Shown here: one piece after another, positions 321 through 6,911 of the stretch
How positions within the stretch are numbered: position 1 is the stretch's first letter
Layout of the letters: every line of letters starts with the position of its first letter
NCBI GenBank assembly: GCA_002793435.1
Contig: PFQF01000031.1
Location: forward strand, 1-44,690
Length of the DNA stretch: 44,690 bases
Source: Candidatus Berkelbacteria bacterium CG_4_10_14_0_2_um_filter_35_9_33_12
GTDB taxonomy: Bacteria > Patescibacteriota > UBA1384 > GWA2-35-9
Direction of reading: 5' to 3'
Made by a program: the position numbers and the translations under genes
Notes under the pieces: generated by a model
Database searches by the model: none
What the model saw: the letters and a program-made list of their open reading frames with translations, nothing else
Told to the model about the DNA's origin: nothing

Positions 321-373
321 ATTCAATACAAACCATTACACACCTACGATGTGTGTAATGGTTTGTATTGAAT
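321..373. repeat. perfect 23-bp inverted repeat with 7-nt spacer (attcaatacaaaccattacacac / ctacgat / gtgtgtaatggtttgtattgaat)
   Basis: Read directly from the sequence. No T-run follows on either strand, so it is not a classical terminator. Confidence 0.9.
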
Positions 374-839: not shown

Positions 840-913
840 TGGCAGGTCTGGAGAGAATCGAACTCCCGCCATCGGTTTTGGAGACCGATGTTCTACCACT
901 AAACTACAGACCC
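840..913 (-). tRNA. tRNA-Trp (anticodon CCA), CCA end encoded
   Basis: The reverse complement folds as a cloverleaf: acceptor GGGTCTG/CAGACCT, anticodon arm TCGGT-CTCCAAA-ACCGA, T arm GGGAG-TTCGATT-CTCTC, discriminator G plus CCA. 74 nt. Confidence 0.9.
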
Positions 914-925
914 TAAAGAAGCAAA

Positions 926-1093
926 TTACTTTGTTTCTTTGTGTAAAATTGTCTTACGACATTTTCTGCAATGTTTCTTTTTTTCCAATTTATAATTCAC
1001 ACCGGCTTTACCATGCGATTTATTGACATAATAATTAATAGTTCCACATTCAGAACATTTTAATTTAACATAATTCGATTTTCTTTTTGCCAC
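926..1093 (-). CDS. rpmG: 50S ribosomal protein L33
   Basis: Not in the ORF track (55 aa, GTG start). Translation (M)AKRKSNYVKLKCSECGTINYYVNKSHGKAGVNYKLEKKKHCRKCRKTILHKETK has the typical L33 CxxC...CxxC zinc ribbon. It lies between tRNA genes, as in many bacteria. Confidence 0.9.
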   Translation of the reverse strand: MAKRKSNYVKLKCSECGTINYYVNKSHGKAGVNYKLEKKKHCRKCRKTILHKETK

Positions 1094-1126
1094 ATTTACC
1101 TTTCTGATTATTATTTAATGATTTAA

Positions 1127-1202
1127 TGGAGCCGATAGTCGGGTTCGAACCGACGACCTGCTGTTTACAAAACAGCTGCTCTAGCCACTGAGCTATATCG
1201 GC
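1127..1202 (-). tRNA. tRNA-Thr (anticodon TGT), CCA end encoded
   Basis: Reverse complement: GCCGATA acceptor, anticodon arm GCTGT-TTTGTAA-ACAGC, T arm GTCGG-TTCGAAC-CCGAC, TATCGGC-T-CCA. 76 nt. Confidence 0.9.
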
Positions 1203-1203
1203 G

Positions 1204-1232
1204 TGGTGCTGCCTATTCAACGAGGTTCGAAC
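1204..1232 (-). other. decayed partial copy of the tRNA-Tyr 3' end (T-loop to CCA); candidate att-type duplication
   Basis: The reverse complement GTTCGAACCTCGTTGAATAGGCAGCACCA can be compared with the tRNA-Tyr 3' end GTTCGAATCCTTCACCCAGCACCA. They share GTTCGAA, CCT and the terminal CAGCACCA. It cannot form a T stem and ends 1 nt before tRNA-Thr(TGT). Confidence 0.45.
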
Positions 1233-1264
1233 TTTTTTCACAGAAAAAAATTTGTCTGATACTG

Positions 1265-1482
1265 GATAAACCCCGCCGGCGTCTGCGAACGCCTCTTGTG
1301 TCGTTACGCCAAAACATTGTAAGCAATGTGCATGCTATGATGTTTTGCTTGTTTGTAATGTTTTGCCGTAATGTAAACCGCTGTTCACTTCGCAGACGCT
1401 GTAATGATATTGATTGATTTTTTAATGTTTATTTGTCGTTCAAAAATTTCCCTCCCCACACCCCTTCCATTTTTTGAACGAC
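1265..1482 (+). repeat. left copy of the islet-flanking inverted repeat (218 bp, including a 94-nt hairpin insertion at 1293-1386)
   Basis: Segments 1265-1292 and 1387-1482 match the reverse complement of 3984-4115 almost base for base. It contains helix gcgtctgcgaa/ttcgcagacgc and helix gtcgttcaaaaa/tttttgaacgac, the latter with loop tttccctccccacaccccttccat. Confidence 0.9.
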
Positions 1483-1500
1483 ATTATTTGAGAATTGTAA

Positions 1501-1809
1501 TTAAGCAAAAACTCTATTTGAAATACGGACTTTAATATTTGGAGCATACATTTTTTGTCGGTTGTGCGATTTTTCTATAATATCGTACAACGGTTGAATA
1601 TTAGTTGGGATTTCGCTAATTGATATTTTATTTATTTTAGTTAGCACAAATAATTCGTCTAAAAACGAACGGGAGATAGAATCGATATTTTCCAGCGATA
1701 CAGCATTATATTTTTGCTCAACTATTTTTTTCACCACAAACCGCACGATTCCCCTTGTCGCACATATAATATCTAAGGTAAATAGTTTTAGTATTTTTGT
1801 TTCTTTCAT
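1501..1809 (-). CDS. DUF4325 / STAS-like domain protein (102 aa)
   Basis: Track ORF 1501-1908. I prefer the ATG at 1809 (MKETKIL...), which follows AGGAGAGAGGAAG. The central ...AVSLENIDSISRSFLDELF... resembles the signature I associate with DUF4325 (STAS fold). This is recalled from memory, not searched. Confidence 0.55.
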   Translation of the reverse strand: MKETKILKLFTLDIICATRGIVRFVVKKIVEQKYNAVSLENIDSISRSFLDELFVLTKINKISISEIPTNIQPLYDIIEKSHNRQKMYAPNIKVRISNRVFA

Positions 1810-1855
1810 ATTTACTTCCTCTCTCCTAAATATTAGTTTACTCCAATTATCATAT

Positions 1856-2422
1856 TTAATCAATATATTGCACATAATCAATCCCAACTTTCTTATACTT
1901 GCCGGCAATAGTTATACCGCTGTCTAGCATACAAACATCGAGATACTCTTTCGCCGGATAAAACTGTGCATTTATCCAGCCGAATTCTGCTTCGGAATGA
2001 TCTTCGATATTAGATATAATTTCATCGATTGCAAGATTTAGTGCACTGACAGAGCCCTCCGGAGAGCCAAGTTTTGATAAGCAAATTGCGATTAAACTTT
2101 CTAAAATAGTTGATTTATCACGCAAGGACTTATCATCTTTTTTAGATGCAGAGAATTTGTAAATTGGAATATATTTAGAAGACGGCAGTTTTGGTTTTGT
2201 TAGCCCACTGGGAAAATTAAAATAATTAAGATACGATTTGCAAACTTCGTCTTTCGGTTTAATATATTTTTTTGAACCTTCACTAATTAAAGCTGAGACC
2301 GGCAAGAGTTCTATCGGATGCATAAATTTTGCATCGCTCAAATCCACGATATCGACAGCGCTTTTTAGCAATTTTATTAAATTTTTAGTTGGTTGAAGAA
2401 TTGATTCCATAGCAGTTACCAT
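1856..2422 (-). CDS. GHKL (HATPase_c, SpoIIAB-like) ATPase-like protein, 188 aa, possibly C-terminally truncated
   Basis: N-box-like DEIISNIEDHSE and G1-box-like LDSGITI lie near the C terminus. The ORF stops 16 aa after G1 and no G2 box is visible. Its start ATG overlaps the stop of the upstream 55-aa ORF (TAATG). Confidence 0.5.
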   Translation of the reverse strand: MVTAMESILQPTKNLIKLLKSAVDIVDLSDAKFMHPIELLPVSALISEGSKKYIKPKDEVCKSYLNYFNFPSGLTKPKLPSSKYIPIYKFSASKKDDKSLRDKSTILESLIAICLSKLGSPEGSVSALNLAIDEIISNIEDHSEAEFGWINAQFYPAKEYLDVCMLDSGITIAGKYKKVGIDYVQYID

Positions 2423-2589
2423 TATTTATGAGTTGCTTCTTCGTCGATATCAGTTATGAAAACTATATTACTTTTATAAATTGGTTTTACAACTGGTGCA
2501 TAATCTGCCATTCTAACCTCGATTATGTTTGGATTATCAGCAACTTTAGATATATCTTTTAACGCTTCGATAAATTCTATTAATTCCAT
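2422..2589 (-). CDS. small hypothetical protein (55 aa), translationally coupled to its neighbours
   Basis: Not in the ORF track. ATG at 2589 lies 9 nt after the dpnI-like stop, with AAGGAAACA between them. Translation: MELIEFIEALKDISKVADNPNIIEVRMADYAPVVKPIYKSNIVFITDIDEEATHK. Its stop overlaps the next ATG. Confidence 0.45.
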   Translation of the reverse strand: MELIEFIEALKDISKVADNPNIIEVRMADYAPVVKPIYKSNIVFITDIDEEATHK

Positions 2590-2598
2590 TGTTTCCTT

Positions 2599-3369
2599 TC
2601 AAGATAACTTGTATTTTCCTTTTGATATAAAACCTACATATCCTTTATCTCGTAGAACTTGTAACTGTTGCCGAATTTTATCTCTAATATGGCGATTATT
2701 TGGGTATTTAATGCGTAATTCGCTTTCAAAAGCATAGACCTCATCAAGTGAAAAATCTTTTTTGCCAAGCTTATCAATACAAATCATAGTCTCTAATAAC
2801 CAACCTTTTGCTTCTGCTTCTTTCTCCTCTCGTAAGAAAAGTGTTTTTTTCCATTCGGCAAGTATTTTTTCTTTTGGTTCAACTTGCTTGTCCTTAACAA
2901 AGAATATTTTTCCTGTTCGTGGAACGCATTGGAGTAAAATATTGCAACCGACCCAACCTGTGCGTCTCGCTGTTTGAGACAATGCTTTACGCCTCTCTAT
3001 AATATCTGGAATAAAAAAGTGCTTAGGGATAACAAGAAAATTTAGAACAGAAAAGTTGTATGGATCGTAATTAAGCAGAAATAAATTTGGATTATTTGAG
3101 CTATGTAAACGTTCAATCATCGTCCGGTATGCCCCATCAACTATTTTTAAGCCAACGGAATCTCTCTTACTCTTTAATTCATAATCTTCGTGACAATTTG
3201 AACAAAAAAAATCTGCAACCGGTTTATTATTTCCGTATTTATCAATACCGAGACGACCGCAGTTTGGACAATAAATCTGCCTGTCAACCCAATCTTCCGT
3301 TAAAACTCTTATTTTTTGTGACGAACTTGTGTATTCGTTAGATAAACTGGTATCAAAAGATAAGTTCAT
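2599..3369 (-). CDS. DpnI-like (Dam-replacing family) methyl-directed type IIM restriction endonuclease, 256 aa
   Basis: From the MNLSFDTSL start it is colinear with pneumococcal DpnI as I remember it: SQKIRVLTEDWV, YCPNCG, PVADFFCSNCHEDYELKSK, DGAY..M, NNPNLFLL, ARRTGWVGCNI, and a C-terminal winged helix ending IRQQLQVLRDKG...GKYKL. Confidence 0.85.
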   Translation of the reverse strand: MNLSFDTSLSNEYTSSSQKIRVLTEDWVDRQIYCPNCGRLGIDKYGNNKPVADFFCSNCHEDYELKSKRDSVGLKIVDGAYRTMIERLHSSNNPNLFLLNYDPYNFSVLNFLVIPKHFFIPDIIERRKALSQTARRTGWVGCNILLQCVPRTGKIFFVKDKQVEPKEKILAEWKKTLFLREEKEAEAKGWLLETMICIDKLGKKDFSLDEVYAFESELRIKYPNNRHIRDKIRQQLQVLRDKGYVGFISKGKYKLS

Positions 3370-3385
3370 TATAAAGGTTATAATC

Positions 3386-3568
3386 TTACTTATCAACGCT
3401 AACTCTTTTGTCGGCATGAACCGTAAAACCTCCATTTGACAAGTTGTAGGGAGGATCCGCAAAAATCATATCAACCGAGTTTTCTTCTATTTCTTCGAGT
3501 AATTTAAAACTATCTCCCAAGTAAAGAGTAAAATTATTTCTTTCAAAATATGGTTTGTCTTTCATCAT
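3386..3568 (-). pseudogene. 5' stump (60 codons) of a beta-class N6-adenine DNA methyltransferase (DpnA / M.DpnIIB-like)
   Basis: ...SVDMIFADPPYNLSNGGFTVHADKRVSVDK* contains motif IV (DPPY) and the SNGG...VSVDK segment, then stops. Full-length enzymes are about 260-300 aa, with the TRD and FxGxG motif downstream. The dpnI-like start lies 17 nt beyond the stop. Confidence 0.8.
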
Positions 3569-3765
3569 CTCACTAGCTCATCAATCTTTATCTCTAACAC
3601 TTTGCAAAGAGAGATTACAGTTTCTATTTTAGGGTTTTTGTTAATCCCATTTTCAATCTTGGCAATAGTGTTTAAAGATACATCTGCTTGACGAGCTAAT
3701 CCCTCCATTGTTATTTGTTTTTGTTTTCTTAATTTTTTCAGATTAACCGCTATGTTATTTGACAT
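3565..3765 (-). CDS. XRE-family HTH regulator, R-M controller (C) protein-like, 66 aa
   Basis: Typical HTH_3 sequence (LKKLRKQKQITMEGLARQADVSLNTIAKIENG). Its stop overlaps the methyltransferase stump start (ATGA), the usual C-M arrangement. Confidence 0.75.
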   Translation of the reverse strand: MSNNIAVNLKKLRKQKQITMEGLARQADVSLNTIAKIENGINKNPKIETVISLCKVLEIKIDELVR

Positions 3766-3780
3766 ATATAGTGTATCAAT

Positions 3781-3796
3781 ATTATACTATAGTATA
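3781..3796 (-). promoter_or_regulatory. candidate C-box operator (14-bp perfect palindrome TATACTATAGTATA, 3783-3796) overlapping a TATAAT -10 (rc of 3781-3786)
   Basis: Palindrome read directly from the sequence. The -10 lies 15 nt upstream of the C-gene ATG and no SD is visible, consistent with a short or leaderless C transcript. Confidence 0.4.
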
Positions 3797-3885
3797 CATA
3801 CTAAAGTAATAATAAAAGTTATTTGTAGCTAAATAAATAGTATCCCATTAACAACCAAAGGTCAAACTTAAAGGGAGTATCAACC

Positions 3886-3921
3886 GTTGCCTGTGCACGA
3901 GTGGGTTGGGGCAAAGGCAAC
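3886..3921 (-). other. stem-loop (11-bp stem with one mismatch) with a C-rich loop on the minus strand (CCCAACCCACUCGU)
   Basis: gttgcctgtgc / gcaaaggcaac arms read directly from the sequence. It sits in a GC-rich patch of otherwise AT-rich spacer. Confidence 0.6.
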
Positions 3922-3983
3922 ACCGCTTTTATATTGGTATAGTTGTATTCTTTTCTTTAATTCCGTCCAACCTAATTCCGTTT

Positions 3984-4115
3984 GTCGTTCAAAAAATGGA
4001 AGGGGTGTGGGGAGGGAAATTTTTTGAACGACGAATAAACATTAAAAATCAATCAATAGTCGTTAGCGCATCTGCGAAGTAGGGAGAGCGTTCGCAGACG
4101 CCGGCGGGGTTTATC
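3984..4115 (-). repeat. right copy of the islet-flanking inverted repeat (132 bp), 5 nt downstream of tRNA-Tyr
   Basis: Its reverse complement matches 1265-1292 plus 1387-1482. Helix 1 carries one G-U change, and the loop is CGCUCUCCCUAC instead of the 94-nt insertion. Helix 2 and its CCCUCCCCACACCCCUUCC loop are identical. Confidence 0.9.
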
Positions 4116-4120
4116 AATTA

Positions 4121-4206
4121 TGGTGCTGGGTGAAGGATTCGAACCTCCGTAGGCATAAGCCAGCTGATTTACAGTCAGCCCTCGTTGACCACTTGAGTAA
4201 CCCAGC
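4121..4206 (-). tRNA. tRNA-Tyr (anticodon GTA), long variable arm, CCA end encoded
   Basis: Reverse complement: GCTGGGT acceptor, anticodon arm GCTGA-CTGTAAA-TCAGC, long variable arm, T arm GGAGG-TTCGAAT-CCTTC, ACCCAGC-A-CCA. 86 nt. Confidence 0.9.
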
Positions 4207-4250
4207 ATATTACACATTTCACTACACATCAATATCCAATTTTTAACCTA

Positions 4251-4325
4251 TGGAGCCGATAAGCGGACTTGAACCGCTGACCTACTCCTTACCATGGAGT
4301 TGCTCTACCACTGAGCTATATCGGC
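4251..4325 (-). tRNA. tRNA-Thr (anticodon GGT), CCA end encoded
   Basis: Reverse complement: GCCGATA acceptor, anticodon arm ACTCC-ATGGTAA-GGAGT, T arm AGCGG-TTCAAGT-CCGCT, TATCGGC-T-CCA. 75 nt. Confidence 0.9.
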
Positions 4326-6779: not shown

Positions 6780-6911
6780 ATTAATTATTGTAGTATCAAT
6801 AATGTGAATTAAGCAAGTTTAATCATTAAACAAAATCCCCAATTCAAGCATTGCGCACAGCGTAGGTGAGCAACGGTTGTTTTTTTATAAAAATTATGCA
6901 ATTATATAAAT

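What the first reader, a model, noticed from the sequence alone, without database searches (positions are those of the whole stretch)
1265..4115. Long inverted repeat pair bracketing the defence operon, with conserved helices, a 94-nt hairpin insertion in one copy, and a CCUCC-containing, G4-prone loop
Seen in sequence:
- 1265-1292 plus 1387-1482 is nearly identical to the reverse complement of 3984-4115. The inner ends face the cassette (1482 and 3984).
- Both copies keep helix 1, gcgtctgcgaa/ttcgcagacgc. The right copy has one change, which preserves pairing as G-U.
- Both copies keep helix 2, a 12-bp gtcgttcaaaaa/tttttgaacgac stem with a 24-nt loop UUUCCCUCCCCACACCCCUUCCAU.
- The copies differ mainly in that the helix-1 loop (12 nt in the right copy) is replaced in the left copy by a 94-nt imperfect extended hairpin (cgttacgccaaaacatt... 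/ ...aatgttttgccgtaatg).
- The opposite strand of the helix-2 loop is GGAAGGGGTGTGGGGAGGG, a G-run cluster that stands out in a roughly 30% GC genome.

Inference: variable-length hairpins emerging from conserved helices are typical of functional RNAs or of structured recombination sites. Three readings are possible: (a) two paralogous small RNAs; (b) the ends of a non-autonomous mobile cassette; (c) inverted repeats allowing inversion of the whole operon relative to the tRNA promoter, a possible expression switch. I do not recognise this element.
Basis: partly seen in the sequence, partly recalled or inferred. Interest (0 to 1): 0.68.

Follow-up and report, generated by a model that had tools for sequence, protein, structure and literature searches.

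The report
Inverted-repeat ends of a defence islet
The two long inverted repeats are real and most likely mark the two ends of a small, enzyme-less piece of foreign DNA carrying a restriction enzyme, inserted at a tRNA gene of a groundwater Berkelbacteria genome; they are probably not small RNA genes or an on/off inversion switch.

Summary
Window 1259-1483 and 3959/3983-4121 are an imperfect inverted repeat, each copy with the same two hairpins. The left copy has an extra ~94-nt hairpin. These are the only copies in the window.

The host is a Berkelbacteria (CPR) chromosome. The repeats bracket a controller protein, a methyltransferase stub, a DpnI-like methyl-directed endonuclease and three unknown genes.

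The closest relative has only an 80-nt tRNA-Tyr/tRNA-Thr spacer here, with no repeat and no cassette. So 1203-4120 is an insertion. A ~30-nt relic of a tRNA-Tyr 3' end (1204-1233) lies at its far side, as in tRNA-targeted integration.

Twelve independent assemblies span the element, all in one orientation. A second strain variant (two assemblies) keeps the identical left repeat. It diverges exactly at the base of helix 2, continues 24 nt like the right repeat, then carries other genes.

I found no Rfam, phage or plasmid match, and no related sequence in the viral-contig or genome-contig pattern scans. There is no transposase or integrase, no short target duplication and no compensatory base-pair change.

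Best reading: ends of a non-autonomous integrated cassette. The sRNA and inversion-switch readings are not supported. G-U pairs all fall on one strand, a hint of single-strand function that remains unexplained.

The parts
1259..1483 (+). Left inverted-repeat copy (IR-L), read outside-in on the + strand. It is truncated at its inner end in this strain.
   Evidence: the truncation is shown by comparison with L049/L069
1279..1399 (+). Helix 1 of IR-L (arms 1279-1289 and 1389-1399), enclosing the extra hairpin
1293..1386 (+). ~94-nt block present only in IR-L. It forms an imperfect hairpin (arms 1302-1326 and 1349-1373) with 20 Watson-Crick pairs, 4 G-U pairs and 1 mismatch. All four G-U pairs are on the + strand.
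   Evidence: (I10)
1435..1482 (+). Helix 2 of IR-L (arms 1435-1446 and 1471-1482) with the C-rich 24-nt loop 1447-1470
3959..4121 (-). Right inverted-repeat copy (IR-R), full length, read outside-in on the - strand. It starts at the last base of tRNA-Tyr.
3959..3982 (-). Inner 24-nt extension of the repeat (AAACGGAATTAGGTTGGACGGAATT). It is matched by the left copy only in variant V2.
3984..4032 (-). Helix 2 of IR-R (arms 4021-4032 and 3984-3995) and its loop
4068..4101 (-). Helix 1 of IR-R (arms 4091-4101 and 4068-4078, 12-nt loop). One C-to-U change gives a G-U pair on the - strand.
1484..3958 (-). Cargo, all on the - strand: HTH controller protein 3565-3765; 60-aa N-terminal stub of a type II methyltransferase 3386-3568; DpnI-like methyl-directed endonuclease 2599-3369 (longest ORF reaches 3462); 55-aa ORF 2422-2589; 188-aa ORF 1856-2422; 124/135-aa ORF 1501-1875/1908
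4121..4206 (-). Intact, intron-less tRNA-Tyr(GTA). Its CCA end abuts IR-R.
1204..1233 (-). Relic of a tRNA-Tyr 3' end (T-loop to CCA). It lies 1 nt upstream of tRNA-Thr(TGT), the same junction as in relative L040. It may extend to 1256 (ATCAGAC).
1127..1202 (-). tRNA-Thr(TGT), the host gene downstream of the insertion. It is followed by rpmG (926-1093) and tRNA-Trp (840-913).

Best explanation
The two repeats are the terminal inverted repeats of a ~2.9-kb integrated islet (window ~1257-4120). The islet landed at the 3' end of tRNA-Tyr, inside the tRNA-Thr/tRNA-Tyr/tRNA-Thr/rpmG/tRNA-Trp operon of a Berkelbacteria chromosome.

Shown:
- The block is an insertion relative to the nearest relative.
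- It is bounded outside by an intact tRNA-Tyr on one side and a decayed tRNA-Tyr 3' end on the other.
- It is bounded inside by ~163-nt inverted repeats built from two palindromes.
- It carries restriction-derived cargo and no recombinase.
- The inner DNA next to the left repeat differs between strains.

Inferred:
- The repeats are the cis-acting end sequences, with the two palindromes serving as binding or hairpin sites, used by a recombinase or transposase supplied in trans or since lost.
- Integration duplicated or displaced the tRNA 3' end.
- The present copy is probably a decaying, immobile relic. The left end has lost its inner 24 nt and gained a 94-nt palindromic insertion, and the two copies now differ at 29 of 165 aligned columns (about 18%, most of it in the helix-1 loop).
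For: - Empty site. In Berkelbacteria GW2011_GWA2_35_9 and allied contigs (flanks 77-86% identical), tRNA-Tyr is followed by an 80-nt spacer and then tRNA-Thr(TGT)-rpmG-tRNA-Trp. There is no similarity to the repeat. A more distant relative also lacks it.
- tRNA relic. GTTCGAA...CAGCACCA occurs only in tRNA-Tyr and at 1204-1232, against 0 expected. The relic abuts tRNA-Thr with the same CAGCACCAC|GCCGAT junction as in L040. It aligns better with the relatives' tRNA-Tyr T-arm than with the window's own.
- The repeats abut these direct-repeat segments at 4121 and ~1259.
- No transposase or integrase domain was found in the cassette or in the ten other window ORFs scanned.
- Variant V2, in two independent assemblies (L049, L069), keeps an identical IR-L. 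It continues with the 24-nt inner extension and then a DUF1508 gene and another ORF.
- Precedent: restriction-modification units flanked by long, unique inverted repeats without a transposase, and units integrated into tRNA genes with 3'-end repeats, are described in PMC2853133.
Against: - No second locus with this repeat was found, so mobility is inferred from one insertion. The searches were limited. They used exact-match patterns only; the species' own genome is absent from genome contigs; and metagenome contigs held only two short contigs of this locus.
- There is no short target-site duplication next to the repeats (read directly).
- The tRNA-derived direct repeat is degenerate (z about 2-4).
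- No cognate enzyme was identified.
- The clustering of differences away from the ends is not statistically significant (P 0.06-0.22), so selective constraint on the ends is not shown.
- V2 may simply be a longer ancestor of V1 rather than an exchanged cargo. No alternative right junction was seen among 13 right-junction contigs retrieved through the flanking gene rather than through a cassette gene.
Confidence: 0.5

Rival explanations
1. The repeats are functional single-stranded structures read from the outside inwards at each end. They could be RNA leader, insulator or processing modules that handle read-in transcription from the host tRNA operon. They could also be folded ssDNA recombination sites, in the manner of integron attC or Y1/HUH hairpin sites, at which cassettes are exchanged.
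For: - All non-Watson-Crick positions inside helix 1 (right copy) and the 94-nt hairpin are G-U on the outside-in strand, 5-6 against 0-1 on the complement.
- That strand folds with z -6.2 and -7.5, against -2.7 and -3.7 for the complement.
- V1 and V2 diverge exactly at the base of helix 2.
- The full-length copy can close into a multi-helix domain through CCGCC/GG.CGG pairing.
- IR-R lies in the sense direction between tRNA-Tyr and the cassette. In V2, IR-L lies upstream of an inward-reading gene.
Against: - There are too few events for significance (p about 0.06-0.12).
- No pair shows a compensatory change, with only two distinct sequences available.
- No Rfam family matches at E <= 1.
- Neither helix is followed by a U-tract, so there is no canonical terminator.
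- There is no GTTRRRY/RYYYAAC core and there are no extrahelical bases. The two copies are inverted rather than direct as attC sites are, and no IntI, Y1 or HUH gene is in the window.
Confidence: 0.17
2. The repeat is a by-product with no function. A ~165-nt segment was duplicated in inverted orientation by fold-back or template-switch repair when the foreign DNA was captured next to tRNA-Tyr, and the two copies have been drifting since.
For: - The repeat is found only at this locus.
- There is no target-site duplication, no enzyme and no covariation.
- The copies have diverged at 29 of 165 aligned columns, carry indels and a 94-nt palindromic insertion of the kind template switching makes, and the differences are not significantly clustered.
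Against: - Both internal palindromes are kept intact in both copies despite that divergence. The only change inside a stem keeps pairing.
- The repeats sit exactly at the two edges of the inserted block, next to the tRNA-derived direct repeats.
Confidence: 0.2
3. The repeats allow inversion of the 2.5-kb cassette as an expression switch relative to the tRNA operon promoter.
For: The repeats are long enough (42-nt and 34-nt near-perfect blocks) for homologous recombination to invert the segment. Several assemblies break inside or at IR-R.
Against: - 12 of 12 independent contigs spanning both repeats have the window's orientation, and so does every single-junction contig that continues into window-type cassette DNA.
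- The inverted-junction pattern found nothing, although that collection barely holds the locus.
- No invertase gene is present.
- Promoter-like sites and a controller-protein gene lie inside the segment.
- V2 is not the inverted form.
Confidence: 0.03
4. The two copies are paralogous small-RNA genes, each with its own promoter.
For: The hairpins are stable and conserved, and the loop contains CCUCC.
Against: - No Rfam match.
- The repeat is absent from relatives.
- No promoter-like site lies upstream of either copy on the structured strand.
- One copy is truncated and the other is not.
Confidence: 0.05

Closest known systems
Transposon-like restriction-modification units flanked by long inverted repeats (Furuta, Abe & Kobayashi 2010, PMC2853133)
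   Same: Restriction genes are bracketed by imperfect inverted repeats. The repeats are absent from the empty site of a related genome and unique in the host genome, and there is no transposase inside.
   Different: The published cases have 26-65-bp repeats and a clean 8-bp target duplication. Here the repeats are ~163 nt and internally palindromic. There is no short duplication, and the outer direct repeat is a degenerate tRNA 3' end.
tRNA-targeted integrative islands and their integrase-less derivatives (cis-mobilizable elements, CIMEs); from my own knowledge and PMC2853133
   Same: The insertion is at the 3' part of a tRNA gene. An intact tRNA lies on one side and a displaced 3'-end copy on the other, and the cargo is defence genes.
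   Different: No integrase is present. The direct repeat is only block-wise similar. Long inverted repeats just inside the att-like sites are not a usual feature.
Mobile insertion cassettes (MICs), i.e. non-autonomous TIR transposons carrying passenger genes (for example PMC3913671 in the list; otherwise from my own knowledge)
   Same: Passenger genes lie between terminal inverted repeats without a transposase.
   Different: MIC ends match the ends of a known IS family, MICs are flanked by short target duplications and they occur in several copies. None of these was found here.
Alternative restriction cassettes at one locus (pneumococcal DpnI/DpnII cassettes; from my own knowledge)
   Same: A DpnI-type methyl-directed enzyme sits at a strain-variable locus, and a methyltransferase stub suggests replacement of an earlier system.
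   Different: As I recall, the pneumococcal cassettes are swapped by homologous recombination in ordinary flanks and are not bounded by long structured inverted repeats.

Membership tests
Non-autonomous TIR transposon / mobile insertion cassette | Terminal inverted repeats at both ends of the inserted block | tested here: met
Non-autonomous TIR transposon / mobile insertion cassette | Short direct target-site duplication immediately outside the repeats | tested here: not met
   The flanks read directly (..TGTCTG|ATACTGG.. and ..CAATTAT|GGTGCT..) share no duplication.
Non-autonomous TIR transposon / mobile insertion cassette | Ends related to those of an autonomous IS, or a cognate transposase identified | tested here: inconclusive
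   No match in plasmids, phages, viral contigs or the loci held. No transposase was found among the window ORFs scanned. ISfinder and the full MAG could not be searched.
Non-autonomous TIR transposon / mobile insertion cassette | More than one copy or insertion site | tested here: not met
   Only this locus was found. The searches used exact-match patterns and the collections were incomplete.
tRNA-targeted integrative island / CIME | Insertion at a tRNA 3' end, flanked by a direct repeat of that end | tested here: met
   The repeat is degenerate: a 30-nt relic with the T-loop and the CAGCACCA blocks intact.
tRNA-targeted integrative island / CIME | Tyrosine or serine integrase gene in the element | tested here: not met
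   Therefore only an integrase-less derivative is possible.
tRNA-targeted integrative island / CIME | Empty site in a related genome | tested here: met
Invertible DNA switch | Both orientations present in the population | tested here: not met
   12 of 12 spanning contigs are in one orientation. The junction scan was negative but weak.
Invertible DNA switch | Site-specific invertase nearby | tested here: not met
Integron attC site | R''/R' core sites (RYYYAAC / GTTRRRY), extrahelical bases, same orientation along an array, and IntI | tested here: not met
   The helix-2 arms read GTTCAAA / TTTGAAC. The stems are perfect, the copies are inverted and there is no integrase.
Described RNA family (Rfam 15) | Covariance-model match | tested here: not met
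   (no match at E <= 1)
REP/BIME with RAYT (Y1 transposase) | Multi-copy hairpin repeats of the type that flank a Y1 transposase gene | tested here: not met
   The lineage has such a system (L039 2032-2799; window 321-373), but its hairpin (CACAC-CTACGAT-GTGTG) is unrelated to the repeat studied here.

The most novel reading that the evidence does not exclude
The ~163-nt unit is a folded single-strand module (closing stem, helix 1 with a variable-length insert, helix 2 with a C-rich loop) that works from the outside inwards at both ends. It would define a new kind of cassette-docking or exchange site, or a transcription-insulating end, for defence cassettes lodged in tRNA operons of CPR bacteria. 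Strand exchange or processing would occur at the base of helix 2, where the two strain variants diverge.
Probability: 0.12. Interest if true: 0.7.

Novelty: new variant of a known kind. Interest (0 to 1): 0.36.

Why it matters
CPR bacteria have tiny genomes, and it is poorly known how they gain and lose defence genes. This locus shows a restriction cassette lodged inside an essential tRNA/ribosomal-protein operon. It is bounded by unusually long, structured inverted repeats, it has no enzyme of its own, and its content varies between strains. If further copies of the repeat exist next to a recombinase, this would identify a mobilisation system for such islets. If not, it is one more example of the already described class of repeat-flanked restriction units.

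Tried and rejected
- Rfam at gathering threshold and at E <= 1: only tRNAs.
- Viral contigs, three DNA patterns: none, or chance hits in GC-rich phages.
- Viral contigs, two protein-based scans with cassette and V2 proteins: nothing.
- Genome contigs, helix-2 arms with any loop: 22 unrelated hairpins. The species' own genome is not in that collection.
- Metagenome contigs, predicted inverted junction: 0 hits. A later scan showed the collection holds only two short contigs of this locus, so that negative is nearly uninformative.
- BLASTN of the repeat against plasmids and phages: no match.
- nhmmer and blastn of both copies against the relatives' loci: nothing.
- Attempt to recover the rest of variant V2, through its DUF1508 protein and through both flanking host proteins: only a 911-nt second contig was found. 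All longer contigs are the window's variant.
- Similarity between V2's inner DNA and V1's right inner DNA beyond the 24-nt extension: none.
- Controller-protein operator idea: rejected. The palindromes near the C gene (3766-3800) are separate and lie 190 nt from the repeat.
- Group I intron relic idea: the relatives' tRNA-Tyr carries an intron, confirmed as group I in L040. Rejected because there is no RF00028 signal in the window region and no similarity to the relatives' introns.
- Block-wise conservation as evidence of selection: not significant.
- Short direct repeats D6 and D10 (1483-1511 against 3064-3108): judged to be chance in AT-rich DNA, from my own rough estimate that several such matches are expected.


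Full report
**Observation**

The region was read directly and scanned for repeats.
- The inverted pairs found are 1442-1483/3983-4024 (42 nt, 100%), 1259-1292/4088-4121 (34 nt, 94%), 1387-1407/4060-4080 and 1408-1422/4044-4058. Together they make one interrupted inverted repeat.
- An alignment of the left copy with the reverse complement of the right copy shows that they differ mainly by a ~94-nt block present only on the left.
- BLAST gives 91.9% identity over the 99-nt inner part.
- The 22-nt outer motif and the 19-nt loop core each occur exactly twice in 44.7 kb, against zero expected. nhmmer with either copy finds no third copy in the window.
- Folding reproduces helix 1 (11 bp) and helix 2 (13-14 bp, 21-24-nt C-rich loop) in both copies, and the extended hairpin in the left copy.
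- The loop is the most C-rich or G-rich 19-mer of the 32% GC window. It has only three runs of three or more G, and the window has no canonical quadruplex motif.

'G4-prone' is overstated.

**Context**

All genes around the repeats are on the minus strand. In order they are:
- tRNA-Thr(GGT) 4325-4251 and tRNA-Tyr 4206-4121
- IR-R
- an HTH controller protein, a 60-aa N-terminal stub of a type II methyltransferase, a DpnI-like methyl-directed endonuclease (Pfam DpnI 3e-79; PADLOC mREase_II 5e-118), and three ORFs of 55, 188 and 124/135 aa with no family assignment
- IR-L
- tRNA-Thr(TGT) 1202-1127, rpmG and tRNA-Trp

The ten other window ORFs that I scanned against Pfam are housekeeping genes (RecJ, FtsQ, enolase, a Mur ligase, trigger factor, ClpP, Fpg and others). 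No transposase or integrase was found among them.

The flanking proteins place the window in Candidatus Berkelbacteria. The best named relative is Berkelbacteria bacterium GW2011_GWA2_35_9, at 91% and 75% amino-acid identity for two flanking proteins.

**The block is an insertion**

- Contigs of GW2011_GWA2_35_9 and allied groundwater assemblies have flanks 77-86% identical to the window. In them tRNA-Tyr is followed by an 80-nt spacer and then tRNA-Thr(TGT), rpmG and tRNA-Trp.
- Neither nhmmer nor blastn finds any trace of the repeat there, nor in a more distant relative.
- At the far (left) side of the insertion, 1 nt upstream of tRNA-Thr(TGT), lies GTTCGAACCTCGTTGAATAGGCAGCACCA. The pattern GTTCGAA...CAGCACCA occurs only there and in tRNA-Tyr itself, against zero expected.
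- The junction CAGCACCAC|GCCGAT is the same as the tRNA-Tyr/tRNA-Thr junction of relative L040.
- The relic aligns better with the relatives' tRNA-Tyr T-arm than with the window's own tRNA-Tyr.

So the layout is: intact tRNA-Tyr, IR-R, cargo, IR-L, displaced tRNA-Tyr 3' end. This is the signature of integration at a tRNA 3' end. The inverted repeats sit exactly at the two edges of the inserted DNA. There is no short target duplication next to the repeats.

**Orientation**

The same locus, 99.97-100% identical, is present in many groundwater assemblies.
- Twelve distinct contigs from twelve samples or assemblies span both repeats and both flanks. All have the window's orientation.
- About a dozen further contigs that cover only one junction and continue into window-type cassette DNA agree.
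- A pattern for the predicted inverted junction found nothing in metagenome contigs. A later scan showed that this collection holds only two short contigs of the locus, so that negative carries little weight.

**A second variant**

One of those two contigs, L049, is 99.8% identical to the window through the left flank and IR-L.
- After ...GAACGACA, the base of helix 2, it continues with AACGGTATTGGGTTGGACGGAATT. This matches the reverse complement of window 3959-3982, just inside IR-R.
- It then carries different DNA: a DUF1508 gene reading inward and another ORF.
- An independent ENA contig, L069, confirms this junction base for base.

Two conclusions follow. The full repeat unit is ~163 nt (right copy 3959-4121), and the window's left copy is truncated. 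The DNA next to the left repeat also varies between strains.

V2 is not the inverted form of V1, since there is no further similarity beyond the extension. The rest of V2 could not be recovered. Thirteen right-junction contigs were retrieved through the flanking host gene rather than through a cassette gene, and all are the window's type. V2 may therefore be a longer ancestor of V1 rather than an exchanged cassette.

**Searches for relatives of the repeat**

- No Rfam family matches, even at E <= 1.
- No match in plasmids or phages.
- No true match in viral contigs.
- The genome-contig scan returned only unrelated hairpins, and the species' own genome proved to be absent from that collection.
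- All public scans needed exact pattern matches, so diverged relatives could have been missed.

**Structure and strand**

- With two distinct sequences, no pair shows a compensatory change. One pair changes G-C to G-U.
- Inside helix 1 of the right copy and the 94-nt hairpin of the left copy, every non-Watson-Crick position but one is a G-U pair on the strand read from the outside inwards. That is 5-6 such pairs against 0-1 on the complement.
- The outside-in strand folds much better than shuffles (z -6.2 and -7.5) than the complement does (z -2.7 and -3.7).
- The full-length right copy can also close through CCGCC/GG.CGG pairing.
- These are hints of single-strand function, but there are too few events for significance.
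- The apparent block-wise conservation of the ends is not significant (P 0.06-0.22).

**Interpretation**

The best-supported reading is that the repeats are the ends of a small, non-autonomous integrated cassette at tRNA-Tyr, now probably decaying. Comparable cases are described by Furuta et al. (PMC2853133). They report restriction-modification units flanked by long inverted repeats that are unique in the genome and absent from the empty site, and restriction units integrated into tRNA genes with 3'-end repeats. Mobile insertion cassettes are another analogue.

This case differs from those in four ways:
- the length of the repeats (~163 nt)
- their internal palindromes
- the lack of a short target duplication
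- the combination with a tRNA-derived outer repeat

The small-RNA and inversion-switch readings are not supported. A function as a folded single-strand module, or no function at all, cannot be excluded.

**Verdict**

The feature is real, and its nature as the boundary of an insertion is well supported. The mechanism is inferred. It is a new variant of a known kind, of moderate interest.

Noticed in passing
window 321-373 and 6854-6870; L039 2032-2799: A REP/RAYT-like system in this lineage. In relative L039, a 221-aa gene with a weak Y1 transposase hit is flanked by inverted hairpins with a CACAC-CTACGAT-GTGTG core. The window has a perfect 23-bp-stem hairpin of the same type at 321-373. It also has a degenerate copy at 6854-6870, the site where the relative carries the Y1 gene.
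   Followed up: partly
window 3386-3568 with 2599-3462: A 60-aa N-terminal stub of a type II methyltransferase (DPPY motif; PADLOC MTase_II 2e-17) lies directly upstream of, and in its longest reading frame overlaps, the DpnI-like methyl-directed endonuclease, downstream of a controller protein. This looks like a classical C-M-R system whose M and R genes were replaced by a methyl-dependent enzyme.
   Followed up: partly
L039 6430-7684: The close relative carries a different insertion of the same flavour: a 75-aa DNA-methylase fragment plus an Mrr-like endonuclease. It sits between two genes that are only 8 nt apart in the window (10491/10499).
   Followed up: no
L040 1604-1890; L042 487-808: In the relatives, tRNA-Tyr is interrupted in the anticodon loop by a ~200-230-nt intron. 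It is confirmed as group I in L040 (RF00028, 81.8 bits); the L042 intron gave no Rfam hit at E <= 0.01. An ORF that I take, from its sequence only, to be a homing-endonuclease-like gene (no family match) lies upstream. The window's tRNA-Tyr has no intron and no such ORF.
   Followed up: partly
window 840-4325 compared with L040 1239-2639: The order of the two tRNA-Thr genes differs between lineages. The window has Thr(GGT)-Tyr-[insertion]-Thr(TGT)-rpmG. L040 has Thr(TGT)-ORF-Tyr-Thr(GGT)-rpmG. The window's Thr(TGT) shares its first 18 nt with the Thr(GGT) genes, which suggests recombination between the tRNA-Thr genes.
   Followed up: no
L040 2640-2760: A pseudo-tRNA-Thr 5' fragment, interrupted by a ~45-nt palindromic insert, lies next to tRNA-Thr(TGT) in the distant relative.
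   Followed up: no
L074 start (= window 3983), L056 (= 4115), L058 (= 4038): Several independent assemblies break exactly at or inside IR-R. This is as expected if the repeat, or coexisting variants V1 and V2, confuse short-read assemblers.
   Followed up: partly
window 1404-1431, minus strand: A promoter-like site (TAAACA, 16 nt, TATCAT) faces outward from IR-L towards tRNA-Thr(TGT)/rpmG. The corresponding sequence in IR-R is degraded (TAGTCG). It might restore expression of the host genes downstream of the insertion. This is a consensus match only.
   Followed up: no
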